This document shows positions 5,142-31,670 of a stretch of DNA of 31,670 nt, piece by piece. Below the pieces are notes generated by a model. That model saw only the letters and a program-made list of their open reading frames with translations. It was not told the DNA's origin and ran no database searches. This stretch comes from a virus (Duplodnaviria; Heunggongvirae; Uroviricota; Caudoviricetes). Position numbers and translations under genes: made by a program. The stretch's first letter is position 1. Each line of letters opens with the position of its first letter. The stretch is from positions 1 to 31,670 of the IMG/VR virus record IMGVR_UViG_649989948_000010; one strand, written 5' to 3'.

Positions 5142-5262
5142 TTGACCATTGCTACCGACCGGATCACCTTAACATCCGGTCTATATAGAGACTATTTTTT
5201 ACACGCCGGAAGTCGCCCTTAAAGCCCTTCCGGCCCTTGCCAGACGGCACAAAGGATGCGCT

Positions 5263-8200: not shown

Positions 8201-8379
8201 AACGCTATATTCGCACGTCTTTAAAACGCGAATACGCCACCGAAAATGGCACAGAATTAAACGAGACATTACCAAAACTTAGTCCGTTAAACCCGCAATA
8301 TAAAACGAAAAAACAGACCGTTTTCCAGAAAATCGTCACGTTTATTGAAAAGTTCAAAGGAGTAGGTGGGCAGATATAG
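5263..8379 (+). CDS. hsdR: Type I restriction endonuclease subunit HsdR (type IC-like)
   Basis: 1038 aa; SF2 helicase motifs (TGSGKT, DECHRS), type I HsdR architecture; AGGA RBS. Confidence 0.93.
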
Positions 8380-17303: not shown

Positions 17304-17364
17304 TTTTTATCCTTAACCCATTTTGAGAGTTTTATTGTCGCAATGTCGAAGAGGCGAACAATTT

Positions 17365-18485: not shown

Positions 18486-18895
18486 TTGCTCACCTCATAG
18501 ATGACCGGTCTATGATGAGAGTCAGCTAAAGCGGCACGGAGTCGAGGATCGTGCACCAGCGCAGCGATAAGCAGATCGCCTTTATGCTCCGCTAATGTGC
18601 GCTTAATATGCTTCTCATAACTAGTGCTATTCGGTACGAGGTGAAGCCAGTCGTAATCAACACCAAAATCTTTCAGCCATCGTTTAGTGGGCGCTTCAAG
18701 AGTTTCAGAGCGGCTACTGATAAGCACCACTTCAGCCCCTGAGCGAGCAAAACCACGCAACATACGGCTGGTGGGGAAAATGAGTTCATCACCGGCAATG
18801 AATTGGCCTGCATCCGAGTCAGATACAGATTTACGATGGCTGGTATTTGCCAGCACACCTTCAATTTCGCATAAGACATACATACCTCTTGCCAT
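18482..18895 (-). CDS. Hypothetical protein, possibly a HAD-like phosphatase or nucleotidase
   Basis: Start reset to ATG at 18895 (MARGMYVLCEIEGVLA), 2 nt after the thyA stop; motif resembles HAD motif I but with Glu in place of both Asp. Confidence 0.3.
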   Translation of the reverse strand: MARGMYVLCEIEGVLANTSHRKSVSDSDAGQFIAGDELIFPTSRMLRGFARSGAEVVLISSRSETLEAPTKRWLKDFGVDYDWLHLVPNSTSYEKHIKRTLAEHKGDLLIAALVHDPRLRAALADSHHRPVIYEVSK

Positions 18896-18896
18896 A

Positions 18897-20000
18897 TCAC
18901 ACCGCCACTGGAACCTTGATCCACGGTAGAGGGGCATAGCCAAGAATAAGAATCTCGTCCCATTTGAAATCATCCAGCTCAGACCATTCATTAGGGAATA
19001 TAACGACCGGATCTGAATGCTCTGGAGCCTGTCGTTGCATTAGCTCACACACACCTTCCATGTGGTTGTTGTACAAATGCACGTCAAAGCCAAAATGCAC
19101 AAATGCACCGGCCATGTGACCCGTAATCTTCGCGAGAAAATGAGTGAGAATGCCATAGCCAGCAATATTGAATGGCATACCAACAAAAGTGTCTACGCTA
19201 CGCTGTACGAGGCAGGAGTTGAGGATGCGTTTGGGGATTCCAAGTTCATCCAGTTCAGCTTCAGTAACACTGCCGTCTATCTCCAGATCGTATAGCATCT
19301 TGGTGTAGATAGACTCGTAACCGAGGCGACTGTGTTGAAGACCAATGTCAGTTGCCATCGTTAAACGGGTTTCAAAATCCAGCTCACGACTCCACAAAGA
19401 GAAGACAAAGTGGCAAGGTGGCAGTTTCATATCCTCAAGCTCGCCTACGTTCCATGCGTTAAGCATGATGCGACGATCGGTAGGGTTCATGCGCAGTGTA
19501 TCGACAATACGCTGTAGCTGATCGATTTCACGGGACAGCACTACGCGATCTTCACTGATACCCAGGTATCCCTCGACTTTGTACCCGCGTTCACGGAAAG
19601 TAGCGATCTTGCTCAGATATTCACTATGGCTCACGATGCGGGTATCTTCCCATCGACGCCACTGCTTACCGTAAACCGGCCCCAAATCGCCATTCTCATC
19701 GGCCCATGCATCCCAAATCTTAACGCCGTTATCCTTGAGAAATTGGATGTTGCCCGTGCCTTTCAGATACCACTCAAGTTCGACAAGCAGTGGCTTAAGA
19801 TTTACCGCCTTTCCAGAAATAAGCGGCACAGTCCCACCAGTAAGCATGTAGTAAGAGGGAACGTAACAGGTGCTTAAAGTACCAGTGCCTGTGCGATCAT
19901 CAGCCTGCACGCCGCTTTTAAGCACCGTCTCAATAACTTTTGCATACGATGCGTTTGTTACCTGACCGTTCGTATGCTCACGATTCAAAAGGAGTGACAC
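18897..20000 (-). CDS. thyA: Thymidylate synthase (ThyA family, long form with insertions)
   Basis: Motifs DRTGTGT, GDLGPVYGKQWR, active-site PCH, DxHxYxNH; start placed at in-frame GTG with GAGG RBS (ORF-track start at 20027 is also GTG). Confidence 0.85.
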   Translation of the reverse strand: MSLLLNREHTNGQVTNASYAKVIETVLKSGVQADDRTGTGTLSTCYVPSYYMLTGGTVPLISGKAVNLKPLLVELEWYLKGTGNIQFLKDNGVKIWDAWADENGDLGPVYGKQWRRWEDTRIVSHSEYLSKIATFRERGYKVEGYLGISEDRVVLSREIDQLQRIVDTLRMNPTDRRIMLNAWNVGELEDMKLPPCHFVFSLWSRELDFETRLTMATDIGLQHSRLGYESIYTKMLYDLEIDGSVTEAELDELGIPKRILNSCLVQRSVDTFVGMPFNIAGYGILTHFLAKITGHMAGAFVHFGFDVHLYNNHMEGVCELMQRQAPEHSDPVVIFPNEWSELDDFKWDEILILGYAPLPWIKVPVAV

Positions 20001-20171
20001 AAAAACCTCACAAAGATAAGTAACCACTTATTCATTGCGTGAGTTTACATTTATTGAGAGAACAAGACCAGACAGATAAAAAAATGGTGGCCATAGGCCA
20101 CCAAAAACGAATAGTTGTTTCAGAAATTTAACGCGCCAGCGCAATATACACAGATAGATAACTACCTACAA

Positions 20172-21041
20172 TTATTTTTTGATCATTCCGTACATTGCTG
20201 AGGCTTTAGCTTGCTCAACAAAGGAGGATAAATCGACATCACTATAGGTTGGAGACTTCAGAATCTTTCCATCGGAAATTCGAAAACCGATCATCTTATC
20301 GGTGCCATCAGCATGGCGAAATCCCAGGTCAGAAGAGTCGTATTTGCAGTTGGCCACAGCATGGCGACGCTCTTCGGCATCTGCAGGCCATAATTTTGTC
20401 ATGTTGGACCGATGAATTTCGCCAACCAGCTCGACGACATTGATACCGAGAAAATCAGCCAGTCGATAAGTCATCATGCACGCCACATAGATTTTGTTCA
20501 TTACACGGCGCAGTTCCTGAATCAGCTCAGAATCCTTAACAGTCTTCTTCTCAAGTTTATCTGCCAGCTCTTCGAGCATACATGACGCCTCACGAGCTTC
20601 CTGAAATGGCATTGCCATATCATCGAAAACAGTGTTACCAGGCACAAAAATTGTCTGCATAAAGCGATCAATGCTCTGTTCCTGCGTGTAATAAGTCATG
20701 CCGGTAGAAATACCACCTTTGATGGCGACCATCGTACCAACACCAACGTATAAAAAGTCGGCCATTGCATCCAGCAGTTGCTCAATATCCCCATTCATTG
20801 CGGCTGGAATACCTTCCACTACAGCTTCTTCATGAATCAGGCTTGCACGGAGACGAAGCAGCTCTGGTGTCGGCATAACGCGTCTCGGATGCTGGAAGAG
20901 TTCATGAAACTGATCGACCATCTTGTAAATACTTTCAGTGGCTACACCATGGCCTTCATGCAACTCATATGGTTCTGGCTTAAATCCAATGAGTCGATCG
21001 GTGGCAAGTTTCAGGTGGTCAGTCAGTTTGGTAAAGTTCAT
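20172..21041 (-). CDS. Hypothetical protein, possibly a MazG-like nucleotide pyrophosphohydrolase
   Basis: 289 aa; perfect AAGGAG RBS; C-terminal region (LGINVVELVGEIHRSNMTKL...DGK) resembles all-alpha NTP-PPase motifs. Confidence 0.4.
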   Translation of the reverse strand: MNFTKLTDHLKLATDRLIGFKPEPYELHEGHGVATESIYKMVDQFHELFQHPRRVMPTPELLRLRASLIHEEAVVEGIPAAMNGDIEQLLDAMADFLYVGVGTMVAIKGGISTGMTYYTQEQSIDRFMQTIFVPGNTVFDDMAMPFQEAREASCMLEELADKLEKKTVKDSELIQELRRVMNKIYVACMMTYRLADFLGINVVELVGEIHRSNMTKLWPADAEERRHAVANCKYDSSDLGFRHADGTDKMIGFRISDGKILKSPTYSDVDLSSFVEQAKASAMYGMIKK

Positions 21042-21118
21042 GCTAGTTTTGCTCCTTCTTAATTCTTGTGATCCATTGTGGCCCAGCGTTGCCAGGCCAC
21101 ATAATGCTTTGTATCGGT

Positions 21119-22261
21119 TTACAGGTCTGCAAACTGGCTTAGAGAAGCCTTATCCACGGTAGAATCGATCTGACCTACCAGATATGTGCTTTGCTCTGCC
21201 TCTTGTGGTGCAATTTGCAGTGTGTCGGTTAACAACCACTTGTTCATCCAGACCAGCGGATCAGTGGTAACTTCTGGAAATAAAGCCTTCAGGCCAAGAC
21301 GATTCATAGCCAGATTGGTGCGGTATTTTACATAGGTTTTGAGAATATCCGCGTTTAAACCAATCATCGAACCGTCTTTGAAGAGATAGTCTGCCCAGTT
21401 CATTTCTTGTTCGGCGACTGATTTCATGGTGTCGTAAATGACGTTTTCTTCATCAGCAGCAATCTCTTTCCACAATAAACCTTCGCGACCGGTACGCATG
21501 AAGCGGATCATGCGTTCAGTTCCTTCGCAATGCAGAGCTTCATCACGGGCAATAAAGCGCATAATTTTGGTGTTACCCTCAAGCAACTTCCGTTCACCAA
21601 AGGCAAACGTACATGCAAAACTTACGTAGAAACGGATCGCCTCAAGCGCATTAATGGACACCAACGTGCGGAAAAGCTGACGATGCAAAGGGTATGGCTC
21701 CCAGCCATATTCATTTACGTACAGACGCTCAAATTCCTTCTCACCTAACGACTGGCGCTCGCAGGTCATCCCATAAAGCCTGTCATATTCAGCAGAGATA
21801 CTGATCGCTCGGTTGATGATTTCTTCATCCGTAACAATACCGTCAAAAACAATGCTCGGATCGTCCACCATGCCACGAATAATGTGGGTGTAGCTGCGGC
21901 TATGGATAGTCTCAGAGAAAGACCATGTTTCAACCCACGTTTCCAGTTCAGGAATAGAGATAAGCGGCAGCAGCGTTGCATTTGGGCTACGTCCCTGAAC
22001 TGAATCGAGTAACGTTTGATAACGGAGATTGCTCAGAAAAATGTGACGTTCGTGGTCCCGCAGCTTCGTGTTGAAGTCGATACGATCGCTCGAAATATCA
22101 ACTTCTTCCGGCCGCCAGAAGAAAGACAATTGACGTTCAATCAACTTTTCAAAATCACGGTATTTTTGCTGATCGTAACGTGCCACGTTGACAGATTGTC
22201 CGAGGAACATAGGCTCTTTGGTTGCATCATTAGCACCCAAACGGAACGTTGAATATGACAT
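21119..22261 (-). CDS. nrdB: Ribonucleotide reductase class Ia small subunit
   Basis: 380 aa; collinear with E. coli NrdB ([60 protein letters not shown]); divergent, phage-type. Confidence 0.92.
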
Positions 22262-22292
22262 GTGTTTTTCCTTTTTCTTTTTTGGTGCGTTT

Positions 22293-22305
22293 AAACAAGT
22301 TGTTA
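22293..22305 (-). promoter_or_regulatory. Palindrome-like motif AAACAAGTTGTTA upstream of nrdB
   Basis: Third copy (one mismatch) about 38 nt upstream of the nrdB ATG, with extra half-site at 22313-22324 and the same GTGTTTTTCC leader. Confidence 0.35.
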
Positions 22306-22340
22306 TCTTATGTGTTTAAACAAGGCTTACAAATCAAAGA

Positions 22341-22359
22341 GAAGGTGGGGATATCCCCC
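22341..22359 (-). terminator. Stem-loop between nrdA and nrdB (possible attenuator)
   Basis: GGTGGGG/CCCCACC stem with ATATC loop, directly after the nrdA stop and followed on the minus strand by a T-rich tract. Confidence 0.35.
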
Positions 22360-22367
22360 ACCATATG

Positions 22368-24683
22368 TCAGATTTTGCAGGCTCCGTCGCACTCATCTTC
22401 TGGCTCGACGGCTACAGCTTGCGCCAGTGGATTCTGCGGTTCGTCGTCATCACGTTTTCCTGCACCATCTCTGGTGTTGTGGTAGTAAAGCGTTTTAACT
22501 CCCATCTTGTAGGCGAGAAGCAAATCTGACAGTAGCGTCATCATTGGGACTTTATCGCCTTCAAAGCGAGAAGGGTCATAGTTGGTATTGGCTGAAATAG
22601 CCTGGTCAAAGAACTTCTGGATGATCGCCACCTTTGTCAGATAGCCGCGGTTGTCCGGCATATCCCACAGGTATTCATACTGTTCCTTCAGTTTTTCAAA
22701 CTCAGGCACGACCATCTTAACGATGCCGTCCTTAGAAGATTTCACCGACACCGGGCCACGAGGCGGTTCGATGCCGTTGGTGGAATTAGTGATCTGGCTG
22801 GAAGTCTCGCATGGCATTTGTGCCGTCAGTGTGGAGTTGCGAAGGCCGTATTTTGCAATACGTTCACGCAGTTCTTCCCACGGCATCTTTAACTCAAAGT
22901 TGGTTTCGCCACTTTCGTCTAATGAAGAACGGTAATGGTCGATCGGCAACTGACCAATTGCGTACTTGGTCTGCTCAAACCAGTCACACTCACCTTTTGC
23001 TTCAGCAAGTCGGCAGCTGGCATCAAGAAGGTAATACTGGATAGCTTCGAATGTTTCATGCACCAGTTTATTGCCAGCGGTATCAGAATAACGAACGCCA
23101 TTCTTTGCCAGGTAATAAGCAAAGTTGGTTACACCAATTCCCAAGCTACGACGAGCTTTGGCAGGCACTTCGGCTGCCTCCATCGGATAGTCTTGATAAT
23201 CCAGTAACGAATCCAGTGCAGCAACGGCATAGAACGCCACCTCTTTAAGAGACTCCAGTGAACGGATGGCTCCGAGGTTAAAAGCGGATAAAGTGCATAG
23301 CGCGATCTCACCGTTCGGGTCGTCGGTAAATGCCAGTGGACGGGTGGGTAGGGTGATCTCCATACACAGGTTTGACTGGCGGACAGGTGCAAGAGCAGGA
23401 ATGAAAGCGCCATGCTCATTAATATGATCGACGTTCGCAATATAAATTCGGCCCGTGGACGCTCGTTCCTGCATCAGAGATGAGAACAGCTCAATGGCAG
23501 GTACTGACTTCTTGCGAATTGAATCATCGGCTTCGTATTTATGGTACAGCTTTTCAAACAGCTCCTGGTCTGTGAAGAAGGCTTCGTACATATCAGGCAC
23601 ATCATGCGGGCTGAACAGAGTGATGTTCTCGCTTCTGACGAGTCGACGGTACATTAGACGGTTACTCATGACGCCGTAATCAAGATGGCGAACGCGGTTT
23701 TCATCAATACCACGGTTATTTTTCACCACCAGCAGACTTTCAACTTCAAGATGCCAGATCGGGTAAAACGCTGTTGCTGCGCCACCACGAACACCACCTT
23801 GCGAACAAGATTTAACAGCCGTCTGGAAATGCTTCAGGAATGGAATAACTCCGGTATGGGTGGCTTCACCATTGCGGATCTCGCTGCCCAGCGCACGGAT
23901 ACGGCCAAAACCAATACCAATTCCAGCACGACGTGAAACGTAGTCGATAATTGCGGCTGAAGCTGCACTAATCCCTTTCAGGCTATCGCCAGACTCAATC
24001 AGCACACAACTGGAGAACTGACGGGTTGGAGTACGGACGCCGGCCATGATTGGTGTGGGCAGAGACAGTTTGAACGTACTTGTAACGTCATAGAAACCTT
24101 TGACCATCTCCATACGTGTTTTGCCAGCGCAGTCGTCTTCCCAATTCTGGAACAGACACATGCCTACCAGCATATAGATATGTTGCGGCCCCTCATGAAT
24201 CTCACCAGTAACACGGTTTTGAACGAGGTATTTGCTTTGCAACTGCACCGTAGCTGCATAGCCAAAAAGATCGTCACGTTTCGGCTTAATGTAATTGCCG
24301 AGTTCTTCGATCTCTTCAAACGAATAATGTGTCAGCAAATCCTTGTCATAAACGCCCTTGTTAACGTTCTTGACAATGTGTTGGTAGAAGTTCGGATAGT
24401 CGTAACGACCGAAGGCATCTTTGCGGATTTTAAAAATGTTCAGGCGGGCAGCCACCTGTGAGTAATTTGGTGCTTCTGGTGAGATCAAATCAGCGGCAGA
24501 TTTAACCAAAGCCTCATGCAACTGGCTGGTGGTCATCCCATCAAAAATGCTGGCCGCAGCTCCCATTGCTACAGCGGATGCGCTTACACCACGAATGCCT
24601 TCTACGCCATACATTACGACGCGGTTGTATTTTTCTTCGGATAACGGCTCTGTTTGGCCGTTACGTTTTACGATGCTTATCAT
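22368..24683 (-). CDS. nrdA: Ribonucleotide reductase class Ia large subunit
   Basis: 771 aa; ATP-cone-like N-terminus, C-terminal Tyr pair; collinear with E. coli NrdA. Confidence 0.92.
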   Translation of the reverse strand: MISIVKRNGQTEPLSEEKYNRVVMYGVEGIRGVSASAVAMGAAASIFDGMTTSQLHEALVKSAADLISPEAPNYSQVAARLNIFKIRKDAFGRYDYPNFYQHIVKNVNKGVYDKDLLTHYSFEEIEELGNYIKPKRDDLFGYAATVQLQSKYLVQNRVTGEIHEGPQHIYMLVGMCLFQNWEDDCAGKTRMEMVKGFYDVTSTFKLSLPTPIMAGVRTPTRQFSSCVLIESGDSLKGISAASAAIIDYVSRRAGIGIGFGRIRALGSEIRNGEATHTGVIPFLKHFQTAVKSCSQGGVRGGAATAFYPIWHLEVESLLVVKNNRGIDENRVRHLDYGVMSNRLMYRRLVRSENITLFSPHDVPDMYEAFFTDQELFEKLYHKYEADDSIRKKSVPAIELFSSLMQERASTGRIYIANVDHINEHGAFIPALAPVRQSNLCMEITLPTRPLAFTDDPNGEIALCTLSAFNLGAIRSLESLKEVAFYAVAALDSLLDYQDYPMEAAEVPAKARRSLGIGVTNFAYYLAKNGVRYSDTAGNKLVHETFEAIQYYLLDASCRLAEAKGECDWFEQTKYAIGQLPIDHYRSSLDESGETNFELKMPWEELRERIAKYGLRNSTLTAQMPCETSSQITNSTNGIEPPRGPVSVKSSKDGIVKMVVPEFEKLKEQYEYLWDMPDNRGYLTKVAIIQKFFDQAISANTNYDPSRFEGDKVPMMTLLSDLLLAYKMGVKTLYYHNTRDGAGKRDDDEPQNPLAQAVAVEPEDECDGACKI

Positions 24684-24700
24684 GTATCACCAAATAAAGA

Positions 24701-24722
24701 GGGCCACTAAATATAGTGGCCC
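24701..24722 (-). terminator. Stem-loop between the RuvC-like gene and nrdA
   Basis: 9-bp stem GGGCCACTA/TAGTGGCCC with 4-nt loop, followed on the minus strand by TCTTTATTT just before the nrdA RBS. Confidence 0.4.
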
Positions 24723-24756
24723 ATGTTAATAGATAAGCACTTACCTATCAATGAAA

Positions 24757-25326
24757 TCAAATGAGAGACTTAAGAACATCGCGCACCTGGCGGAACTGAT
24801 CTGTTTGCATACCGGTATGGATGGCAGCCACCGCATCAGCCAAATGTTCGTTTTTGTTCACGAGAACATCCTGTCCAGATTGCTTACGACGCAGCCACGG
24901 TGCTTTAGGGTGTTTTTTCGTAGCCCACTGGATAATCTCTTCTTTCGATGTAGTAAGTTTATTGCCGACAAAATGCTTGATTTCGTTTGGAGTAACCTGG
25001 ATCAATGGCTTATCCACACACGCAAGTACACCGATACAAATACCGTAAGACGTCTGCGAACGAGAGTTTTGGCTCCCAACCGGTAGCTCACAAAAAACCA
25101 TATTTGCCTTATCAATGATTGGCTTCGCAACACGCCATATTTCACTGGCTCGGCGCAGATCGTCACTGTTCACACGAACGGTCTTTTTGTTACTCCCCGC
25201 TTTAGTCTCAACAAGAGTAAGGCCGTGAATCTCAAGTTCGTCCGTCTCAAGGTCTAAAGTGCCCACAGCAAGCCCAAAGTTGCTCATTGAGGGATCAACA
25301 CCAACTACGCTGATTTTTTTACTCAT
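24757..25326 (-). CDS. RuvC-like Holliday junction resolvase
   Basis: 189 aa; N-terminal VVGVDPS (compare RuvC GIDPG), acidic residues at positions expected for the RuvC fold; strong AAGGAG RBS. Confidence 0.55.
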   Translation of the reverse strand: MSKKISVVGVDPSMSNFGLAVGTLDLETDELEIHGLTLVETKAGSNKKTVRVNSDDLRRASEIWRVAKPIIDKANMVFCELPVGSQNSRSQTSYGICIGVLACVDKPLIQVTPNEIKHFVGNKLTTSKEEIIQWATKKHPKAPWLRRKQSGQDVLVNKNEHLADAVAAIHTGMQTDQFRQVRDVLKSLI

Positions 25327-25335
25327 ATAGTCTCC

Positions 25336-26079
25336 TTACCATGTTCCCCATATAGGGTTTTCCAATAATCTCGCCTCCAACGAATTGGCTACTATTGCCG
25401 TTTGCAACGTTGGTTGGGGATAGTTTGCAAAGTCTGAATACTCATTTTCCTGCGTGACACGTTTATCTGCGGCATGTTTAACACCACTTGCTATGAAATG
25501 ACGCATGATGCCCAACAGCCTCCGACTGTCTGCACTATCGTTTGCTAAAACATGAGGGAGCTGAAGTTCGATTTCTACCATTTCTCCATACTTCCCAACA
25601 AACTGTAGTTTGTCCGCACTGTACTTTTTATCCCTCCTTTGGATAAGGAAACCAGTAAAAGCATCACCTGGCGATGCCAAACTATCTACCCGCTTATTGG
25701 CAAGTCGAATAAGGTTCGTGAAAGCCATACAGTGATGCGCACCCATTCCCCCAAAGAACCCTTCGCTATTAATGTTAAGATCTTCAGTTTCATGGGATGC
25801 AATAAACCCAGGCCCGACGTTGGGAAGATATCCCCCCTCAACAAAAGGATTAATCAGGATCGGCGCAATACATCCAGGTGGTAGTGATTTCAAACTTTGC
25901 ATCAATGGCGTCTCGGATATTAGACCAAGCAACGCGGCGAATTGTACTCCGTCAATATTGTTGCTGCCCCACAGAATACGTGGAGCCGCACCATTGGAAG
26001 TATGCCCATTGATCAGTTTTATCGACTGCATCACTGCAAATACCTGCAAAAACTGCGAGCGGCTTAATTTAAACGACAT
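25336..26079 (-). CDS. Hypothetical protein (247 aa)
   Basis: AGAGGGG RBS; lies between the truncated SbcC-like gene and the RuvC-like gene; no family recognised. Confidence 0.5.
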   Translation of the reverse strand: MSFKLSRSQFLQVFAVMQSIKLINGHTSNGAAPRILWGSNNIDGVQFAALLGLISETPLMQSLKSLPPGCIAPILINPFVEGGYLPNVGPGFIASHETEDLNINSEGFFGGMGAHHCMAFTNLIRLANKRVDSLASPGDAFTGFLIQRRDKKYSADKLQFVGKYGEMVEIELQLPHVLANDSADSRRLLGIMRHFIASGVKHAADKRVTQENEYSDFANYPQPTLQTAIVANSLEARLLENPIWGTW

Positions 26080-26396
26080 AGCTGCGCCCCTCTTTAACTT
26101 CCAGCGTAATAGTTTCCCGGAACCATGACTTCATCTCTTTATGGGAGATAATCAGCACAGTACCTCGCTCGCGAGCTTTGGACTCCAGAATACCCATGAG
26201 GCGTTCAAGACCGGCTGTATCGAGTGCATCGTCAATTTCGTCGCCGATAAACAAATCGATGTTTTTACTCGCCCGGTTACTAACCAGATCCTGCAATGCC
26301 AAAGAACACGCAATGCGAACCTTCCGCTTCTCACCACCAGAGAGGGTCTGGAACGACTTACTTGAACCTTTCTTCTGCACACTAATGTTGAATTTG
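26069..26396 (-). pseudogene. 3' fragment of an SbcC/Rad50-like (ABC-type) ATPase gene, truncated by IS66 insertion
   Basis: Encodes only the C-terminal signature LSGGEKRK, Walker B/D-loop LFIGDEIDDALD and H-loop ISHK; reading frame runs into the IS66 left end at 26397. Confidence 0.55.
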
Positions 26397-26482
26397 TGTA
26401 AGCGTAAACTGACCGCCGTATGTAGCCATCAGACGAGAATTGGTAACTTAGACGCCCATCTGATATAGACGGACATCTAAGT

Positions 26483-26908
26483 ATGGAATTACAGGACTGG
26501 CGAAAAGAACCTCGTAAAAACTATTCGAATGAATTCAAACTTCGTATGGTGGAACTGGCATCACAACCTGGAGCTTGTGTTGCACAGATTGCACGTGAAA
26601 ATGGCGTCAATGATAATGTTATTTTCAAATGGCTCAGGCTCTGGCAGAACGAAGGGCGTGTTTCACGGCGTCTTCCGGTAACGACCTCTTCTGACACTGG
26701 CGTTGAATTATTACCTGTAGAAATAACGCCGGATGAGCAGAAAGAACCTGTGGCGGCCATTGCGCCGTCTTTATCCACTTCCACTCAGACCAGAGTCAGT
26801 GCCAGTTCCTGCAAGGTGGAATTCCGTCACGGTAACATGACGCTGGAAAATCCATCGCCAGAGCTGCTCACAGTGTTGATCCGTGAACTGACCGGGAGGG
26901 GAAGATGA
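26483..26908 (+). CDS. IS66-family accessory protein (orfA)
   Basis: 141 aa HTH-like protein; 4-bp overlap with orfB. Confidence 0.85.
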   Translation: MELQDWRKEPRKNYSNEFKLRMVELASQPGACVAQIARENGVNDNVIFKWLRLWQNEGRVSRRLPVTTSSDTGVELLPVEITPDEQKEPVAAIAPSLSTSTQTRVSASSCKVEFRHGNMTLENPSPELLTVLIRELTGRGR

Positions 26909-27255
26909 TCTCACTCCCATCAGGTACCCGTATCTGGCTCGTTGCCGGCGTTACCGATATGCGTAAATCCTTCAACGGACTGGGAGAACAGGTACAACAT
27001 GTGCTGAATGATAATCCCTTCTCCGGTCACCTGTTTATCTTCCGTGGCCGACGGGGTGACACCGTCAAAATTCTTTGGGCTGATGCTGATGGTCTGTGCC
27101 TGTTCACCAAACGCCTGGAGGAAGGCCAGTTTATCTGGCCTGCGGTACGTGACGGCAAGGTATCCATTACCCGCTCGCAACTGGCAATGCTCCTCGATAA
27201 GCTGGACTGGCGTCAGCCAAAAACATCCAGCCGTAACTCACTGACAATGTTGTAA
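26905..27255 (+). CDS. IS66-family accessory protein (orfB)
   Basis: 116 aa; conserved IS66 orfB pattern (LWADADGLCLFTKRLEEGQF). Confidence 0.85.
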   Translation: MISLPSGTRIWLVAGVTDMRKSFNGLGEQVQHVLNDNPFSGHLFIFRGRRGDTVKILWADADGLCLFTKRLEEGQFIWPAVRDGKVSITRSQLAMLLDKLDWRQPKTSSRNSLTML

Positions 27256-27285
27256 AAAACTCCTGACCGCATTATAAAAACGGTC

Positions 27286-28899
27286 ATGAGTCAGAAATAC
27301 CTCATTCGCATCGCAGAGCTGGAAAGGTTGCTCTCTGAGCAGGCTGAAGCCCTCCGTCAGAAAGACCAGCAACTGAGTCTGGTTGAAGAGACGGAAGCCT
27401 TCCTGCGCTCTGCACTGACACGTGCCGAAGAAAAGATCGAAGAAGATGAACGGGAAATAGAACATCTGCGGGCTCAGATAGAAAAACTGCGCCGGATGCT
27501 GTTCGGTACCCGTTCTGAAAAACTGCGTCGTGAAGTTGAACTGGCTGAGGCTCTGCTGAAACAACGTGAACAGGACAGCGATCGTTACAGTGGGCGGGAA
27601 GACGATCCTCAGGTTCCCCGCCAGTTGCGACAGTCGCGCCATCGTCGTCCGTTACCGGCACACCTTCCCCGTGAAATACACCGCCTGGAGCCAGAAGAAA
27701 GCTGTTGCCCGGAGTGTGGCGGTAAGCTGGATTATCTGGGGGAAGTCAGCGCTGAACAGCTGGAACTGGTGAGCAGTGCCCTGAAAGTGATCCGCACAGA
27801 ACGGGTAAAAAAAGCCTGTACAAAATGTGACTGTATTGTTGAAGCACCGGCGCCGTCTCGCCCGATAGAGCGTGGTATCGCGGGCCCCGGATTACTTGCC
27901 CGCGTGTTAACGGGAAAATACTGCGAACATCTGCCACTGTATCGTCAGAGTGAAATCTTTGCCCGCCAGGGTGTCGAACTGAGCCGGGCCTTACTCTCCA
28001 ACTGGGTTGACGCGTGCTGCCAGTTAATGACACCGGTGAATGATGCCCTGTACCGTTATGTAATGAACACCCGCAAGATTCACACTGATGACACACCGGT
28101 AAAGGTACTGGCACCGGGTCAGAAAAAGGCGAAAACAGGGCGTATCTGGACGTATGTCCGGGATGATCGCAATGTGGGTTCGTCATCTCCTCCAGCGGTC
28201 TGGTTCGCGTACTCGCCGAACCGGCAGGGGAAACACCCGGAGCAACACCTCCGCCCCTTCCGGGGTATCCTGCAGGCGGATGCGTTCACAGGTTACGACA
28301 GGTTGTTCAGTGCAGAACGTGAAGGTGGTGCACTGACAGAAGTTGCGTGCTGGGCCCATGCCCGGCGAAAAATCCACGATGTATACATCAGCAGCAAAAG
28401 TGCGACGGCAGAAGAAGCACTGAAGCGAATCAGTGAACTGTACGCCATCGAGGATGAAATACGGGGATTACCGGAGTCAGAGCGTCTTGCCGTCAGGCAG
28501 CAGCGAAGCAAAGTGTTACTGACGTCGCTGCATGAATGGATGGTGGAGAAGAATGGTACGCTGTCGAAAAAATCCAGACTGGGCGAAGCGTTCAGCTATG
28601 TACTGAATCAGTGGGATGCCCTCTGTTATTACAGTGATGACGGTCTGGCGGAGGCGGATAATAATGCTGCGGAAAGAGCGCTTCGTGCAGTCTGTCTCGG
28701 AAAGAAAAACTTTATGTTCTTTGGCAGCGATCACGGCGGCGAGCGTGGAGCACTGTTGTACGGGCTGATCGGCACCTGCCGTCTGAACGGTATCGATCCG
28801 GAAGCGTATCTGCGCCATATCCTGAGCGTACTGCCGGAATGGCCTTCCAACCGAGTTGATGAACTCCTGCCATGGAACGTAGTACTCACCAATAAATAA
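27286..28899 (+). CDS. IS66-family transposase (orfC)
   Basis: 537 aa; coiled-coil N-terminus, CxxC zinc-finger-like region, conserved catalytic core. Confidence 0.85.
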   Translation: MSQKYLIRIAELERLLSEQAEALRQKDQQLSLVEETEAFLRSALTRAEEKIEEDEREIEHLRAQIEKLRRMLFGTRSEKLRREVELAEALLKQREQDSDRYSGREDDPQVPRQLRQSRHRRPLPAHLPREIHRLEPEESCCPECGGKLDYLGEVSAEQLELVSSALKVIRTERVKKACTKCDCIVEAPAPSRPIERGIAGPGLLARVLTGKYCEHLPLYRQSEIFARQGVELSRALLSNWVDACCQLMTPVNDALYRYVMNTRKIHTDDTPVKVLAPGQKKAKTGRIWTYVRDDRNVGSSSPPAVWFAYSPNRQGKHPEQHLRPFRGILQADAFTGYDRLFSAEREGGALTEVACWAHARRKIHDVYISSKSATAEEALKRISELYAIEDEIRGLPESERLAVRQQRSKVLLTSLHEWMVEKNGTLSKKSRLGEAFSYVLNQWDALCYYSDDGLAEADNNAAERALRAVCLGKKNFMFFGSDHGGERGALLYGLIGTCRLNGIDPEAYLRHILSVLPEWPSNRVDELLPWNVVLTNK

Positions 28900-28993
28900 G
28901 CGTCAATACGGTGCTCCGTTGACGCTTACTTCAGGTGCATCCGGTCCCCCTTGTTTTTGATACAAAACACGCCTCACAGACGGGTAATTTTGC

Positions 28994-29002
28994 TTATCCA
29001 CA
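28994..29002 (+). promoter_or_regulatory. DnaA box (TTATCCACA), possible remnant of an IncFII-type plasmid origin
   Basis: Exact DnaA-box consensus in a non-coding stretch upstream of the CPBP-pemI-pemK block; origin assignment is inference. Confidence 0.3.
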
Positions 29003-29756
29003 TTAAACTGCAAGGGACTTCCCCATAAGGTTACAATCGTTAATGTCATAAAGCGCCAGCCGTCAGCCCTACAGGGTGCAATGTATCTTTTAAACACCTG
29101 TTTATATCTCCTTTAAACTACTTAATTACATTCATTTAAAAAGAAAACCTATTCACTGCTTGTCCTATGGACAGACAGATATGCACCTCCCACCGTAAAC
29201 GGCGGGCCCCAACCGGAGCCACTTTAGTTACAACACACAAAACCAACCTCCAGAAAAACCCCGAACCAGCGCAGAACTGAAACCACAAAGCCCCTCCCTC
29301 ATAACTGAAAAGCGGCCCCGCCCCGGCCCTTCGGGCCGGAACAGAGTCGCTTTTAATTATGAATGTTGTAACTACATCTTCATCGCTGTCAGTCTTCTCG
29401 CTGGAAGTTCTCAGTACACGCTCGTAAGCGGCCCTCACGGCCCGCTAACGCGGAGATACGCCCCGACTTCGGGTAAACCCTCGTCGGGACCACTCCGACC
29501 GCGCACAGAAGCTCTCTCATGGCTGAAAGCGGGTATGGTCTGGCAGGGCTGGGGATGGGTAAGGTGAAATCTATCAATCAGTACCGGCTTACGCCGGGCT
29601 TCGGCGGTTTTACTCCTGTATCATATGAAACAACAGAGTGCCGCCTTCCATGCCGCTGATGCGGCATATCCTGGTAACGATATCTGAATTGTTATACATG
29701 TGTATATACGTGGTAATGACAAAAATAGGACAAGTTAAAAATTTACAGGCGATGCA

Positions 29757-30410
29757 ATGATTCAAACACGTAATCAATATCTGCAGTTTATGCTGGTTAT
29801 GCTGGCTGCATGGGGCATTAGTTGGGGAGCCAGATTTGTCATGGAGCAGGCCGTTCTGCTTTATGGATCAGGAAAAAACTATTTGTTCTTCAGTCATGGT
29901 ACTGTTCTGATGTACCTGCTGTGTGTTTTCCTGGTATACCGCCGTTGGATAGCTCCGCTACCGGTCGTTGGTCAGCTGCGCAACGTTGGCGTACCGTGGC
30001 TGGTCGGTGCGATGGCCGTGGTGTATGTCGGTGTATTTCTGCTCGGTAAGGCGCTGGCTCTGCCTGCTGAGCCATTTATGACGAAACTTTTTGCCGATAA
30101 GTCCATACCTGACGTGATCCTGACGTTGCTGACCATCTTTATCCTTGCCCCGTTGAATGAGGAAACGCTGTTCCGGGGGATTATGCTGAACGTCTTCCGT
30201 TCACGGTACTGCTGGACGATGTGGCTGGGGGCGCTGATAACGTCGTTGTTGTTCGTCGCCGCGCACAGCCAGTATCAGAACCTGCTGACACTGGCAGAAC
30301 TGTTCCTGGTGGGGTTGATTACATCAGTGGCCAGGATCAGAAGTGGTGGCCTGCTGCTGCCGGTATTGCTGCATATGGAAGCAACCACGCTGGGTTTACT
30401 GTTTGGTTGA
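29757..30410 (+). CDS. CPBP-family intramembrane protease-like protein (CAAX protease family)
   Basis: 217 aa polytopic membrane protein with EETLFRG, FVAAHSQY and LLH motifs. Confidence 0.7.
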   Translation: MIQTRNQYLQFMLVMLAAWGISWGARFVMEQAVLLYGSGKNYLFFSHGTVLMYLLCVFLVYRRWIAPLPVVGQLRNVGVPWLVGAMAVVYVGVFLLGKALALPAEPFMTKLFADKSIPDVILTLLTIFILAPLNEETLFRGIMLNVFRSRYCWTMWLGALITSLLFVAAHSQYQNLLTLAELFLVGLITSVARIRSGGLLLPVLLHMEATTLGLLFG

Positions 30411-30467
30411 AAGTTATATTTTTATTAAACATTGTGCGTTAAAGCCTGGTGTGTTTTTTTAGTGGAT

Positions 30468-30485
30468 GTTATATTTAAATATAAC
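30468..30485 (+). promoter_or_regulatory. 18-bp perfect palindrome GTTATATTTAAATATAAC in the pemIK promoter region
   Basis: Perfect inverted repeat 18 nt upstream of the pemI ATG; consistent with an autoregulatory operator. Confidence 0.5.
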
Positions 30486-30502
30486 TTTTATGGAGGTGAA
30501 GA

Positions 30503-30760
30503 ATGCATACCACCCGACTGAAGAGGGTTGGCGGCTCAGTTATGCTGACCGTCCCACCGGCACTGCTGAATGCGCTGTCTCTGGGCACAGATAATGAAGT
30601 TGGCATGGTCATTGATAATGGCCGGCTGATTGTTGAGCCGTACAGACGCCCGCAATATTCACTGGCTGAGCTACTGGCACAGTGTGATCCGAATGCTGAA
30701 ATATCAGCTGAAGAACGAGAATGGCTGGATGCACCGGCGACTGGTCAGGAGGAAATCTGA
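30503..30760 (+). CDS. pemI: Antitoxin PemI (Kis)
   Basis: 85 aa, matches plasmid PemI as recalled (MHTTRLKRVGGSVMLTVPPALL...); GGAGGTG RBS. Confidence 0.9.
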   Translation: MHTTRLKRVGGSVMLTVPPALLNALSLGTDNEVGMVIDNGRLIVEPYRRPQYSLAELLAQCDPNAEISAEEREWLDAPATGQEEI

Positions 30761-30761
30761 C

Positions 30762-31094
30762 ATGGAAAGAGGGGAAATCTGGCTTGTCTCGCTTGATCCT
30801 ACCGCAGGTCATGAGCAGCAGGGAACGCGGCCGGTGCTGATTGTCACACCGGCGGCCTTTAATCGCGTGACCCGCCTGCCTGTTGTTGTGCCCGTAACCA
30901 GCGGAGGCAATTTTGCCCGCACTGCCGGCTTTGCGGTGTCGTTGGATGGTGTTGGCATACGTACCACAGGTGTTGTACGTTGCGATCAACCCCGGACAAT
31001 TGATATGAAAGCACGGGGCGGAAAACGACTCGAACGGGTTCCGGAGACTATCATGAACGAAGTTCTTGGCCGCCTGTCCACTATTCTGACTTGA
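30762..31094 (+). CDS. pemK: Toxin PemK (Kid), MazF-family endoribonuclease
   Basis: 110 aa starting MERGEIWLVSLDPTAGHEQ; the ORF-track entry 30630-31094 is over-extended upstream. Confidence 0.9.
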   Translation: MERGEIWLVSLDPTAGHEQQGTRPVLIVTPAAFNRVTRLPVVVPVTSGGNFARTAGFAVSLDGVGIRTTGVVRCDQPRTIDMKARGGKRLERVPETIMNEVLGRLSTILT

Positions 31095-31471
31095 ACATGG
31101 GGTTTGAGGGGCAACTGGATGAAAACGTACGATTTAGGGCACTAAAACCGCTGTTGTCCCACCATTCTGGTGATTCCCAAACGTTATTTGGCTAAAAAGT
31201 AGTTTTGATGTGGTTTATTTTCCGAATTCCAAGCGCAGCCCTACTTTCTTGTGCGTATTTGCGTGTTTTGCGCAGTTTTGAAGTTCCTACATCAGATTGA
31301 CTTCGGATACAAATTCAATGAACATTGATGCAAATACTGACCTATCAGTTTCTTAACTAAATACTCGAGATACATCTAATGGCTAATGAAAACTTAGATA
31401 TTGACTCCAAGACAGCAGAAGAATTATACGAGTGGTATCTGGATGATAAATTAATTATAAATCGAAGATAC

Positions 31472-31670
31472 GGTGATGCTGCCAACTTACTGATTTAGTG
31501 TATGATGGTGTTTTTGAGGTGCTCCAGTGGCTTCTGTTTCTATCAGCTGTCCCTCCTGTTCAGCTACTGACGGGGTGGTGCGTAACGGCAAAAGCACCGC
31601 CGGACATCAGCGCTATCTCTGCTCTCACTGCCGTAAAACATGGCAACTGCAGTTCACTTACACCGCTTCT
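31472..31670 (+). mobile_element. IS1 left end (partial; runs off the window)
   Basis: GGTGATGCTGCCAACTTACTGATTTAGTGTATGATGGTG matches the IS1 terminal inverted repeat. Confidence 0.85.
31527..31670 (+). CDS. insA: IS1 InsA (5' partial)
   Basis: GTG start; translation [47 protein letters not shown] matches InsA. Confidence 0.8.

What the first reader, a model, noticed from the sequence alone, without database searches (positions are those of the whole stretch)
28930..29756. Plasmid-origin-like remnant with a cluster of GC-rich CTTCGG-type stem-loops
Downstream of the IS66 end there is a DnaA box and then at least three GC-rich hairpins (for example CCGGCCC-TTCG-GGGCCGG, CCCGA-CTTCGGG, GCCGGGCTTCGGCGG). 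The gene order that follows (CPBP-like gene, then pemI-pemK) fits what I recall of the region downstream of the origin in IncFII plasmids such as R100. The hairpin cluster may encode a structured RNA or be a replication terminus element.
Basis: partly seen in the sequence, partly recalled or inferred. Interest (0 to 1): 0.35.

Follow-up and report, generated by a model that had tools for sequence, protein, structure and literature searches.

The report
IncFII plasmid origin, terminus and priming region
This stretch is the well-known non-coding control region just downstream of the replication gene of IncFII (R1/R100-type) resistance plasmids, holding the origin, two replication stop sites and conserved DNA hairpins that most likely start leading-strand synthesis, so it is real and functional but ordinary.

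Summary
A consensus DnaA box (28994-29002) and the three quoted GC-rich hairpins are present, directly after the right end of ISEc23 (26398-28929).

The interval 28930-29756 is the cis-acting part of an IncFII basic replicon. At least 5000 plasmid records match at 90-100%; pRSB225 and E. coli MS 145-7 plasmid unnamed2 are identical.

Anatomy:
- oriR, about 28975-29160.
- Two inverted Tus-type Ter sites (29221-29243 minus strand, 29356-29378 plus strand) forming a fork trap.
- A conserved hairpin between them (29308-29354).
- A roughly 260-bp array of conserved hairpins (29412-29667).

In 31 relatives from other genera (RepA 73-95% identical) the Ter cores are kept while their flanks drift. The hairpins show compensatory changes, fold better on the minus strand (the template of the rightward leading strand), and one 93-nt block is more conserved than repA itself.

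The annotated repA4 ORF shows no coding signal. No Rfam family or promoter was found.

The hairpins are best read as primase-type single-strand initiation signals (the "G site"). That assignment rests on literature recalled from memory.

"Remnant" is uncertain. repA is absent from the window, but no finished genome or plasmid record searched has the window's join. Verdict: already known.

The parts
26398..28929 (+). ISEc23 (IS66 family). Inverted ends are GTAAGCG... and ...CGCTTAC. The left flank is GAATTTGT (26390-26397) and the right flank is TTCAGGTG (28930-28937), so there is no target-site duplication in this window.
   Evidence: Searches give the coordinates. annotate it as ISEc23. In pRSB225 TTCAGGTG flanks both ends, read at the left junction and at the right junction from identity to the window. 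In pKF3-140 the site is uninterrupted.
28930..28974 (+). Distal end of the spacer between repA1 and oriR (the 'CIS' region). ISEc23 inserted about 113 bp after the repA stop codon and 57 bp before the DnaA box.
   Evidence: Comparison with the uninterrupted pKF3-140 sequence.
28975..29160 (.). oriR, with approximate limits. It holds the DnaA box TTATCCACA (28994-29002), the invariant AACTGCAAGGGA (29006-29017) and AT-rich TTTAAAC repeats (29089-29095, 29112-29118) followed by an A/T run to about 29150.
   Evidence: The block is conserved in 36 IncFII-like loci. PMC2762410 describes the DnaA box and oriR downstream of repA1. The 188-bp limits of the minimal origin are recalled from memory, not verified here.
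29221..29243 (-). Ter site. The minus strand reads GTTTTGTGTGTTGTAACTAAAGT, and it is oriented to stop forks moving leftward, towards oriR and repA.
   Evidence: Exact core, 0.04 expected by chance. Kept in place and orientation in 33 of 36 relatives. Polarity is set by comparison with TerB upstream of tus.
29308..29354 (-). Hairpin 1. The outer stem is AAAAGCG/CGCTTTT and the inner stem is CCGGCCC-TTC-GGGCCGG. On the minus strand it is continuous through G.T pairs (extended form 29299-29362) and is followed by CTTTTCAG.
   Evidence: z-scores -4.5 and -5.0. Conserved with compensatory changes in nearly all 29 relatives folded; degraded in L017 and outer stem not predicted in L043. The minus strand is the more stable in 30 of 32 sequences.
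29356..29378 (+). Ter site ATTATGAATGTTGTAACTACATC, oriented to stop forks moving rightward, that is, the fork returning through repA and oriR after one round.
29412..29508 (-). Module A, a highly conserved three-helix element. On the minus strand a CGGAG...CTCCG stem carries an inner GTCCCGAC/GTCGGGGC hairpin; next comes the hairpin AGCGGGCC-GTGA-GGGCCGCT; all are closed by GCGC/GCGT and followed by GTACTGA (CAG at 29412-29414 on the plus strand). It is a candidate primase-dependent initiation signal.
   Evidence: Most columns are at least 90% conserved. Mean identity to the window is 86%, against 72% for repA DNA and 64% for the adjacent spacer. In the minus-strand structure 58 cells are G.T and 4 are A.C, and the minus strand is more stable in 31 of 32 sequences. 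One mismatch in 104 nt against ColIb-P9.
29521..29533 (.). Small conserved hairpin, GGCTGAAAGCGGG in the window and CGCTTTTAGCGGG in relatives.
29579..29667 (-). Block v, three conserved hairpins: CCGGC-TTAC-GCCGG (29584-29597), GGCGG...CCGCC (29603-29607 with 29641-29645) and ATGCCGC-TGAT-GCGGCAT (29650-29667). On the minus strand they are followed by TA-CTG (CAG at 29579-29581 on the plus strand). This is the layout of phage G4 oric, making it the second candidate primase start.
   Evidence: Covariation is seen: GCGGC/GCCGC, CCCGC/GCGGG, GGCGCC/GGCGCC, GGTGCC/GGCACC and ATGCGCC/GGCGCAT. The only local match to G4 oric on the minus strand is CGGCG(A/T)AAGCCG, in this hairpin. The G4 layout was read.
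29277..29567 (+). 'repA4' as annotated in pRSB225, with a CTG start. It is not supported as a protein-coding gene.
   Evidence: Annotation. In relatives the stop-free frame is usually only 45-52 codons, and the spacing varies by lengths that are not multiples of 3. Variability by codon position is 0.156, 0.140 and 0.153.
29757..31094 (+). tir (CPBP/Rce1-like, 29757-30410), pemI (30503-30760) and pemK (30762-31094), the usual IncFII neighbours.

Best explanation
The interval is the non-coding, cis-acting half of an IncFII (R1/R100/NR1-type) basic replicon.

Proposed mechanism:
1. RepA, helped by DnaA at the DnaA box, opens the AT-rich end of oriR (about 28975-29160).
2. Unwinding to the right exposes the minus strand.
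3. Conserved hairpins on that strand (module A, 29412-29508, and/or block v, 29579-29667) serve as single-strand initiation signals of the primase-only 'G site' type. They prime a leading strand that runs rightward, away from repA.
4. Two Tus-binding Ter sites lie between oriR and these signals and form a small fork trap. Ter(-) at 29221-29243 stops any fork moving left into oriR and repA. Ter(+) at 29356-29378 stops the fork that comes back through repA and oriR after one round. Replication is therefore unidirectional and ends without rolling-circle over-replication.
5. Hairpin 1 (29308-29354) abuts Ter(+). It also folds on the minus strand. Its role is not established; it may be a leftward transcription terminator or part of the single-stranded architecture.

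What is shown here: homology, anatomy, Ter consensus and polarity, covariation, strand preference, and the lack of coding or RNA-gene signal.

What is inferred from literature: Tus arrest in R1 (read here in reviews) and primase priming at the G site (recalled from memory).

In this window the module is cut off from repA by ISEc23 and, as assembled, joined to a phage-plasmid. Here it may therefore be silent.
For: - Identity. At least 5000 plasmid records match at 90-100%. There are 0 mismatches over 2552 bp to pRSB225 and to MS 145-7 plasmid unnamed2. The annotated context is repA1, repA4, tir, pemI, pemK.
- Origin. The oriR block is conserved in 36 loci found through RepA in other genera.
- Ter sites. 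Both have an exact GTTGTAACTA core (0.04 expected). In 33 of 36 relatives both are kept in position and orientation, with G6, T9 and the core conserved while the flanks vary. Polarity is fixed by TerB upstream of tus.
- Literature on R1. R1 replication is described as one fork arrested almost at once and the other at a ter/Tus complex near the origin, with loss of Tus giving rolling circles and multimers (PMC8347550, PMC7174701).
- Literature on repA4. The repA4 region holds the ter sites, and a transposon screen in pEC958 found it and the FII origin (oriV in the paper) required for stable maintenance (PMC4398462).
- Hairpins. 97.6% of cells are paired, and 15 pairs show double changes against 4.6 +/- 1.4 in shuffles (0 of 500).
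- Strand. The consensus energy is -51.8 kcal/mol on the minus strand and -33.4 on the plus strand. There are 185 G.T cells against 9 A.C cells, and the minus strand is more stable in 30 of 32 and 31 of 32 sequences.
- Constraint. Module A is 86% identical to the window on average, against 72% for repA DNA.
- Portability. The same 425-bp cassette (29296-29720) is 91-92% identical in the IncI1 plasmids ColIb-P9 and R64, where no similarity to oriR was detected.
- Priming layout. GTACTG follows a hairpin on the minus strand at two places in the window, as CTACTG does in phage G4 oric.
Against: - The primary papers that map the G site could not be read. Its position, and the choice between module A and block v, rest on memory and on anatomy.
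- The CTG that E. coli primase is known to prefer is not conserved after either structure in most divergent relatives.
- Similarity to G4 oric is not above chance: local alignment scores 19-20 against a null of 17-18 +/- 2.3, and blastn against the phage records found no G4-like match.
- Ter(+) lies between oriR and the presumed start in the orientation that should block a helicase coming from oriR. This is not explained here.
- The G.T count is biased, because the structure was predicted on the minus strand. The energy comparison is the fairer test.
- No repA is present in the window.
Confidence: 0.8

Rival explanations
1. The conserved hairpins are a non-coding RNA transcribed leftward from the minus strand. 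It would run through block v, module A and Ter(+) and end at hairpin 1, which acts as an intrinsic terminator. It might modulate Tus-Ter or origin activity.
For: The structure is specific to the minus strand, with G.U-type pairs. On that strand hairpin 1 is a continuous stem of about 20 bp followed by CUUUUCAG. Compensatory changes are present.
Against: No sigma-70-like promoter was found on either strand of 28900-29900. No Rfam match was found even at E-value 10, apart from an irrelevant snoRNA. The tail has only 4 U and was not called by the terminator scan. Sequence to the right of the cassette is unrelated between replicons, so a promoter would have to lie inside the conserved block, where none is seen by eye. 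G.T pairs are equally consistent with single-stranded DNA.
Confidence: 0.08
2. The region encodes the RepA4 protein (29277-29567, plus strand), and the conservation is due to coding constraint.
For: It is annotated as repA4 in pRSB225 and in one RefSeq record. The window has a stop-free frame of 122 codons. The repA4 region was required for maintenance in a transposon screen (PMC4398462).
Against: There is no ATG, GTG or TTG start; the annotation uses CTG. In 31 relatives the equivalent frame is usually open for only 45-52 codons. The distance from Ter(+) to module A varies from 58 to 63 nt. Variability shows no third-position excess (0.156, 0.140, 0.153), and inside module A the third position is the least variable. 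Most RefSeq records annotate nothing here.
Confidence: 0.03
3. In this replicon the origin is a dead remnant. ISEc23-mediated recombination has moved oriR, Ter and the hairpins away from the cis-acting repA and fused them to an SSU5-like phage-plasmid. The elements are then carried passively, apart from the fact that Tus would still bind.
For: No RepA coding sequence occurs anywhere in the window. The flanks of ISEc23 differ (GAATTTGT against TTCAGGTG), so the element joins two unrelated backbones. The left side is a phage-plasmid backbone of replicon type rep_cluster_488 carrying nrdAB, thymidylate synthase and a truncated SbcC-like ATPase gene.
Against: No complete E. coli genome (0 of 5426) and no PLSDB record carries this join. 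Both halves exist separately, at 100% identity, in strain MS 145-7, with repA-ISEc23-oriR on its 80.7-kb plasmid. The window ends inside IS1, which suggests a draft contig, so a chimeric join across a 2.5-kb repeat is possible. This rival concerns the state of this copy, not what the element is.
Confidence: 0.35
4. Some of the hairpins are PriA-dependent (phiX174-type) primosome assembly sites rather than primase-only G sites.
For: AAGCGG, recalled from memory as a motif shared by factor Y/PriA sites, occurs three times on the plus strand within 223 nt (29310, 29426, 29527). Two initiation signals were reported for an R1-derived plasmid (from memory).
Against: Structure and wobble evidence favour the minus strand, whereas the motif is on the plus strand. 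The window-wide count of AAGCGG is not significant (19 found, 14.6 expected). PriA sites have no reliable consensus to test against.
Confidence: 0.1

Closest known systems
oriR / repA4 region of the IncFII plasmids R1, R100 (NR1) and their clinical relatives such as pEC958 and pRSB225
   Same: The sequence is 90-100% identical. It has the same order: DnaA box, AT-rich origin, inverted ter repeats, priming region, tir, pemIK.
   Different: ISEc23 sits in the spacer between repA and oriR. As assembled here, the repA side is replaced by a phage-plasmid backbone.
Tus-Ter replication fork trap of the E. coli chromosome (TerB) and the ter/Tus system of plasmid R1
   Same: Both sites match the consensus at G6, T9 and the GTTGTAACTA core. 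Position 8 is A in the plus-strand site but G in the minus-strand site. They face each other, so forks can enter but not leave. R1 function is described in PMC8347550 and PMC7174701.
   Different: The trap is only about 112 bp wide and lies right beside the origin. It encloses a conserved hairpin. The IncI1 version of the cassette has only the plus-strand site.
Primase-dependent single-strand initiation signals: phage G4 oric, and the plasmid 'G sites' of R1/R100 and ColIb-P9 (assignments recalled from memory)
   Same: Hairpins lie on the leading-strand template and are followed by TACTG in the window. The layout is three hairpins and then CTG. The cassette is 91-92% identical to the region downstream of the ColIb-P9 and R64 origin.
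   Different: No significant primary similarity to G4 oric. CTG is not conserved in divergent relatives. There are two candidate modules rather than one.
Intrinsic (bidirectional) transcription terminators
   Same: Hairpin 1 is a GC-rich stem flanked by an A-run and a T-run.
   Different: The T-runs are short and partly inside the stem. It was not called by the terminator scan, and no transcript is known to end there.

Membership tests
IncFII (R1/R100) basic replicon, origin-distal part | Nucleotide homology to IncFII plasmids across the interval | tested here: met
   At least 5000 records match at 90-100%, and 4944 of them cover at least 80% of the query. Identical to pRSB225 and to MS 145-7 plasmid unnamed2.
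IncFII (R1/R100) basic replicon, origin-distal part | Lies directly downstream of copB-copA-tap-repA1 | tested here: not met
   No RepA is encoded in the window. ISEc23 and a phage-plasmid backbone lie to the left. The feature is met in the identical copies L001, L002 and L005.
IncFII (R1/R100) basic replicon, origin-distal part | DnaA box, conserved core and AT-rich repeats of oriR | tested here: met
   PMC2762410.
IncFII (R1/R100) basic replicon, origin-distal part | RepA-dependent initiation at this origin | not testable with these tools
   Needs replication assays.
Tus-binding Ter site | 23-bp consensus with G at position 6 and a conserved core at positions 8-18 | tested here: met
   ATTATGAATGTTGTAACTACATC and GTTTTGTGTGTTGTAACTAAAGT compared with TerB AATAAGTATGTTGTAACTAAAGT. 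The minus-strand site has G instead of A at position 8.
Tus-binding Ter site | Selective conservation of contact positions in relatives | tested here: met
   In 33 of 36 loci both sites are kept, with variable flanks.
Tus-binding Ter site | Tus binding and polar fork arrest | not testable with these tools
   Reported for R1 in reviews read here.
G4-type primase-dependent initiation signal (G site) | Stable hairpins on the strand that templates the leading strand | tested here: met
   Minus-strand consensus energy -51.8 against -33.4 kcal/mol for the plus strand. The minus strand is more stable in 30-31 of 32 sequences.
G4-type primase-dependent initiation signal (G site) | 5'-CTG-3' start a few bases 3' of the last hairpin | tested here: inconclusive
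   Present twice in the window (GTACTG) and in the IncI1 copies. Absent at both places in most divergent relatives.
G4-type primase-dependent initiation signal (G site) | Sequence similarity to phage G4 oric | tested here: not met
   Scores are at the level of shuffled controls. No blastn match to G4-like phages in the phage records. From memory, the literature also reports little resemblance between phage and plasmid G sites.
G4-type primase-dependent initiation signal (G site) | Primase- and SSB-only priming on single-stranded DNA | not testable with these tools
   Needs an assay in M13 lacking its complementary-strand origin, or in vitro priming.
Protein-coding gene repA4 | Conserved open frame and codon-position pattern | tested here: not met
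Described structured RNA family (Rfam) | Match to a covariance model | tested here: not met
   No hit at gathering scores over the whole window. Nothing relevant at E-value 10 or below in 28900-29800.

The most novel reading that the evidence does not exclude
Module A and hairpin 1 may be more than a simple primase landing site. They could form a portable, minus-strand-specific element, either a single-stranded DNA structure or a leftward RNA ending between the Ter sites. Such an element could govern how the initiating helicase gets past, or Tus is cleared from, the blocking Ter(+) site that lies between oriR and the leading-strand start. The same 425-bp cassette travels between replicons with unrelated origins (IncFII and IncI1) and is also found as orphan copies.
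Probability: 0.1. Interest if true: 0.5.

Novelty: already known. Interest (0 to 1): 0.15.

Why it matters
The finding adds no new biology. It places the window's right end in one of the best-studied plasmid replicons.

It has practical uses:
- The window can be typed as carrying IncFII origin-distal sequence without repA.
- The ISEc23 junction is flagged as a recombination point or an assembly chimera.
- The 'repA4' and 46-aa ORF annotations in this stretch are probably spurious. The conserved features are DNA elements: the Ter sites and hairpins that fold on the minus strand.

The comparative result may help anyone revisiting how these plasmids start and stop replication. Ter sites and hairpins are conserved across Enterobacterales replicons, a 93-nt block is more conserved than repA, and the cassette is shared with IncI1 plasmids.

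Tried and rejected
- Sensitive blastn of 29160-29760 against 50,697 phage records found only chance hits and no G4-like microvirus.
- Local alignment with G4 oric scored no better than shuffled controls on either strand.
- Rfam found nothing, at gathering scores or at E-value 10.
- The promoter scan found none. The terminator scan called only 29592-29606 on the plus strand and a weak minus-strand site inside oriR.
- CTTCGG is not enriched as a motif. AAGCGG is not enriched window-wide.
- repA4 as a coding gene was rejected. The 46-aa ORF at 29519-29659, annotated in some records, has a start codon that is not conserved in relatives.
- The primary papers could not be read: Masai 1983, Jiang 1993, Bernander 1992, Neylon 2005, Tanaka 1994, and the del Solar and Lilly-Camps reviews are not held. 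Full-text searches for 'G site' and 'single-strand initiation' in R1/R100 found nothing usable.
Relatives were reached through RepA instead.
Full report
**Observation**

The finding's interval begins one base after the right end of an IS66-family element. That element is ISEc23, at 26398-28929, with ends GTAAGCG... and ...CGCTTAC (annotation).

A consensus DnaA box, TTATCCACA, lies at 28994-29002. The three quoted hairpins are at 29323-29339, 29462-29473 and 29593-29607.

Folding as single-stranded DNA gives these z-scores against dinucleotide shuffles:
- 29295-29365: -4.5 on the plus strand, -5.0 on the minus strand.
- 29400-29520: -1.1 on the plus strand, -3.0 on the minus strand.
- 29560-29680: -3.3 on the plus strand, -2.8 on the minus strand.

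The shared CTTCGG loop is incidental. The motif is not enriched in the window (12 found, 12.6 expected), and relatives keep the stems but not the loops.

There are two exact GTTGTAACTA cores in inverted orientation, at 29225-29234 (minus strand) and 29365-29374 (plus strand), where 0.04 are expected by chance.

**What it is**

They are mostly Escherichia, Klebsiella, Shigella and Salmonella plasmids predicted to be conjugative.

In pRSB225 the annotated order is finO, srnB, repA2, repA6, repA1, ISEc23, repA4, tir, pemI, pemK. In pKF3-140 the same region is uninterrupted, and the match starts 112 bp after the repA stop codon.

The window's 28929-31480 has no mismatch to pRSB225 or to plasmid unnamed2 of E. 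coli MS 145-7, and 9 mismatches to pKF3-140.

The interval is therefore the origin-distal, non-coding part of an IncFII (R1/R100/NR1-type) basic replicon, followed by tir (a Rce1-like/CPBP protein) and pemIK. Papers read here describe the same layout:
- The origin lies between repA1 and repA4. The repA4 region holds the ter sites and is important for stability. A transposon screen in pEC958 found repA4 and the FII origin (oriV in the paper) required for maintenance (PMC4398462).
- A TTATCCACA DnaA box and oriR lie downstream of repA1 (PMC2762410).

**Comparative anatomy**

To get beyond near-identical plasmids, I searched one genome per species for relatives of IncFII RepA. This gave 46 loci with RepA 60-97% identical, from Klebsiella, Yersinia, Pantoea, Erwinia, Serratia, Citrobacter, Hafnia and others. 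I compared the 900 nt downstream of repA in 36 of them.

1. The oriR block is conserved. It includes a DnaA-box-like TTAyCCACA, the invariant AACTGCAAGGGA (29006-29017 in the window) and AT-rich TTTTAAA repeats.

2. Both Ter sites are kept in the same place and orientation in 33 of 36 loci. The pattern is TG.ATGTTGTAACTA, while the outer positions vary freely. That is what selection for Tus contacts predicts.

3. A hairpin just to the left of the plus-strand Ter site is present, with compensatory changes, in nearly all of the 29 relatives folded; in L017 it is degraded and in L043 the outer stem was not predicted. The inner stem varies as CCGGCCC/GGGCCGG, CCGGGCC/GGCCCGG or CCCCGGCC/GGCCGGGG. 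The outer stem is AAAAGCG/CGCTTTT, or AAAGCCGC/GTGGCTTT in the Yersinia and Serratia loci.

4. A block at 29416-29508 (module A) is at least 90% conserved in most columns. Its mean identity to the window is 86%. The figures are 72% for repA DNA, 72% for the oriR core and 64% for the adjacent spacer.

5. Three further hairpins at 29584-29667 (block v) are conserved with covariation.

A formal count was made on the 32-sequence minus-strand alignment covering hairpin 1 and module A:

| Measure | Observed | Control |
|---|---|---|
| Cells forming a standard pair | 97.6% | 39-53% when partners are slid |
| Pairs with a change on both sides | 15 of 49 | 4.6 +/- 1.4 in shuffles (0 of 500 reach it); 2-7 when slid |

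**Which strand folds**

The RNAalifold consensus is -51.8 kcal/mol with 49 pairs on the minus strand, against -33.4 kcal/mol with 34 pairs on the plus strand.

The extra minus-strand pairs are G.T or G.U. Some positions alternate among U.G, U.A and C.G across sequences, which would be A.C mismatches on the plus strand. In total there are 185 G.T cells and 9 A.C cells.

That count is biased, because the structure was predicted on the minus strand. A fairer test is per-sequence folding with DNA parameters. There the minus strand is the more stable in 30 of 32 sequences for hairpin 1 and in 31 of 32 for module A. Block v shows no strand asymmetry.

**Not a protein, no sign of an RNA gene**

The annotated repA4 (29277-29567) starts at CTG.
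- In relatives the equivalent frame is usually open for only 45-52 codons.
- The spacing between Ter(+) and module A varies from 58 to 63 nt.
- Variability by codon position is flat: 0.156, 0.140 and 0.153. Inside module A the third position is the least variable.

Rfam has no match. A consensus scan finds no sigma-70-type promoter on either strand of 28900-29900.

**Polarity of the Ter sites**

In MG1655, TerB reads AATAAGTATGTTGTAACTAAAGT on the plus strand just upstream of tus. It is established knowledge that TerB arrests the clockwise fork, the one moving towards higher coordinates.

It follows that the window's plus-strand site (29356-29378) blocks rightward forks and the minus-strand site (29221-29243) blocks leftward forks. 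Forks can enter the 112-bp interval between them but cannot leave it.

This fits the published description of R1. One fork is arrested almost at once, and the other copies nearly the whole plasmid and stops at a ter/Tus complex near the origin. Loss of the system gives rolling circles, multimers and instability (PMC8347550 and PMC7174701, citing Nordström 2006 and Krabbe et al. 1997).

**The hairpins as priming signals**

- Leading-strand synthesis of R1 starts about 400 bp downstream of oriR at a 'G site' that primase alone recognises on single-stranded DNA (Masai & Arai 1989; Bernander et al. 1992).
- An R1-derived plasmid carries two such signals (Bahk et al. 1988).
- Plasmid G sites share conserved blocks with each other but show little resemblance to phage G4 oric, apart from the bases near the primer start (Tanaka et al. 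1994).
- ColIb-P9 has a homologous signal near its origin (Tanaka et al. 1991).

What I could test agrees with this picture.
- The structures fold on the minus strand, which is the template of a rightward leading strand.
- In the window GTACTG follows a hairpin on that strand at two places (CAG at 29412-29414 and at 29579-29581 on the plus strand). In G4, CTACTG follows stem-loop I.
- Block v has the G4 layout of three hairpins and then CTG. It also holds the only local match to G4 on the minus strand, CGGCG(A/T)AAGCCG.
- ColIb-P9 and R64 (IncI1) carry window 29296-29720 at 91-92% identity, and module A differs by 1 base in 104. No similarity to oriR was detected in them, and no minus-strand Ter core is present in ColIb-P9.

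What does not fit neatly:
- CTG is not conserved after either structure in most divergent relatives.
- Similarity to G4 is not above chance.
- I cannot say which module is the mapped G site. Position 29580 is about 420 bp from the right edge of oriR, and 29413 is about 420 bp from the DnaA box.
- The plus-strand Ter site lies between oriR and both candidate starts, in the orientation that should block a helicase moving out of oriR. I have no explanation for this.

**Hairpin 1**

Hairpin 1 abuts the blocking face of the plus-strand Ter site. On the minus strand it forms a continuous stem of about 20 bp followed by CTTTTCAG.

It could terminate leftward transcription before it reaches the other Ter site and oriR. 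It could also be part of the single-stranded architecture. No evidence found here decides between these.

**State of this copy**

ISEc23 inserted in the spacer between repA and oriR, about 113 bp after the repA stop codon and 57 bp before the DnaA box. oriR is therefore intact.
- In pRSB225 the 8-bp TTCAGGTG flanks both ends of the element and repA1 lies to its left. MS 145-7 plasmid unnamed2 has the same order, and its right flank is identical to the window.
- In the window the left flank is GAATTTGT, inside a truncated SbcC-like ATPase gene of an SSU5-like phage-plasmid backbone. That backbone is of replicon type rep_cluster_488 and carries nrdAB, thymidylate synthase and dihydrofolate reductase.
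- No RepA is encoded anywhere in the window.
- No PLSDB record and none of 5426 complete E. coli genomes carries this join.
- Both halves occur separately, at 100% identity, on two plasmids of strain MS 145-7. On its 198-kb plasmid the same element again joins two backbones without a duplication, with CTGTAGAA on the right.
- The window also ends inside IS1 (from 31472), as draft contigs often do.

The join is therefore either a genuine ISEc23-mediated recombinant or cointegrate, or a chimeric assembly across a 2.5-kb repeat. Calling the origin a 'remnant' is justified only in the first case.

**Verdict**

The terminus idea is right in substance but attached to the wrong feature. The RNA idea is not supported.

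Everything here belongs to a long-known system. The comparative evidence for minus-strand-specific, deeply conserved hairpins, and against repA4 as a gene, is a useful refinement and not a discovery.

Noticed in passing
window 26390-26397 versus 28930-28937 (flanks of ISEc23, 26398-28929): The two flanks differ (GAATTTGT against TTCAGGTG). The element therefore joins a phage-plasmid backbone to IncFII origin sequence. The join is absent from all 5426 complete E. coli genomes and from PLSDB. Both halves exist separately in strain MS 145-7. It is either a recombinant or cointegrate, or an assembly chimera.
   Followed up: yes
window 26069-26380 (minus strand): This is the C-terminal 103 aa of an SbcC/SMC-like AAA ATPase. 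The gene is 1.9 kb long in intact phage-plasmids such as pSTEC388_1 and is truncated here by ISEc23.
   Followed up: partly
window 17000-26400: An SSU5-like phage-plasmid backbone of replicon type rep_cluster_488, carrying nrdA, nrdB, thymidylate synthase and dihydrofolate reductase. It is 99.7-100% identical to E. coli plasmids of about 110 kb.
   Followed up: partly
window 2335-8379: A complete type I restriction-modification operon: HsdM (2335-3897), HsdS (3894-5141) and HsdR (5263-8379). A ParA/Mrp-like P-loop ATPase is encoded at 105-1205.
   Followed up: partly
window 31472-31670: The left end of IS1 runs off the end of the window. This is consistent with a draft contig that breaks in a repeat.
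   Followed up: no
window 29296-29720; L054 1959-2384 (ColIb-P9); L053 1958-2381 (R64): The cassette of hairpin 1, Ter(+), module A and block v is 91-92% identical in IncI1 plasmids. No similarity to oriR was detected in them, and ColIb-P9 has no minus-strand Ter core. The cassette appears to move between replicon families as a unit.
   Followed up: yes
L056 about 6755-7130; L057 and L059 likewise; L062 about 1600-1700: IMG/VR contigs carry the cassette with no IncFII RepA or IncI1 RepZ found in the DNA fetched around it. In three of them the Ter core is degenerate (GTTGTAAGTA). In L056 the cassette lies next to cytochrome bd-type oxidase genes and an autotransporter. L062 keeps only the core of module A.
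   Followed up: partly
window 29356-29378 relative to oriR (28975-29160) and to 29412 / 29579: The Ter site that blocks rightward movement lies between the origin and both candidate leading-strand starts. How the initiating helicase passes a Tus-bound site there is not explained by anything found here.
   Followed up: no
window 29310, 29426, 29527 (plus strand): AAGCGG occurs three times on one strand within 223 nt, each time at or near the 5' arm of a conserved hairpin. From memory, this hexamer was noted in PriA (factor Y) sites. The window-wide count is not significant.
   Followed up: partly
window 29384-29388 and 29399-29403: Two CGCTG motifs 15 nt apart lie in the otherwise variable spacer between Ter(+) and module A. 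They are conserved as TCGCTG in most relatives. Their function is unknown.
   Followed up: no
L007-L044, about 216-221 nt after the repA stop; window 29030-29037: Many divergent relatives have GTTACAAC, the Ter core 8-mer in reverse, inside oriR. The window has GTTACAAT there. This could be coincidence or a third, weak Ter-like site.
   Followed up: no
window 29519-29659 (plus strand): A 46-aa ORF annotated as a hypothetical protein in several RefSeq records overlaps the conserved hairpins. Its ATG is not conserved in relatives, so it is probably not a gene.
   Followed up: partly
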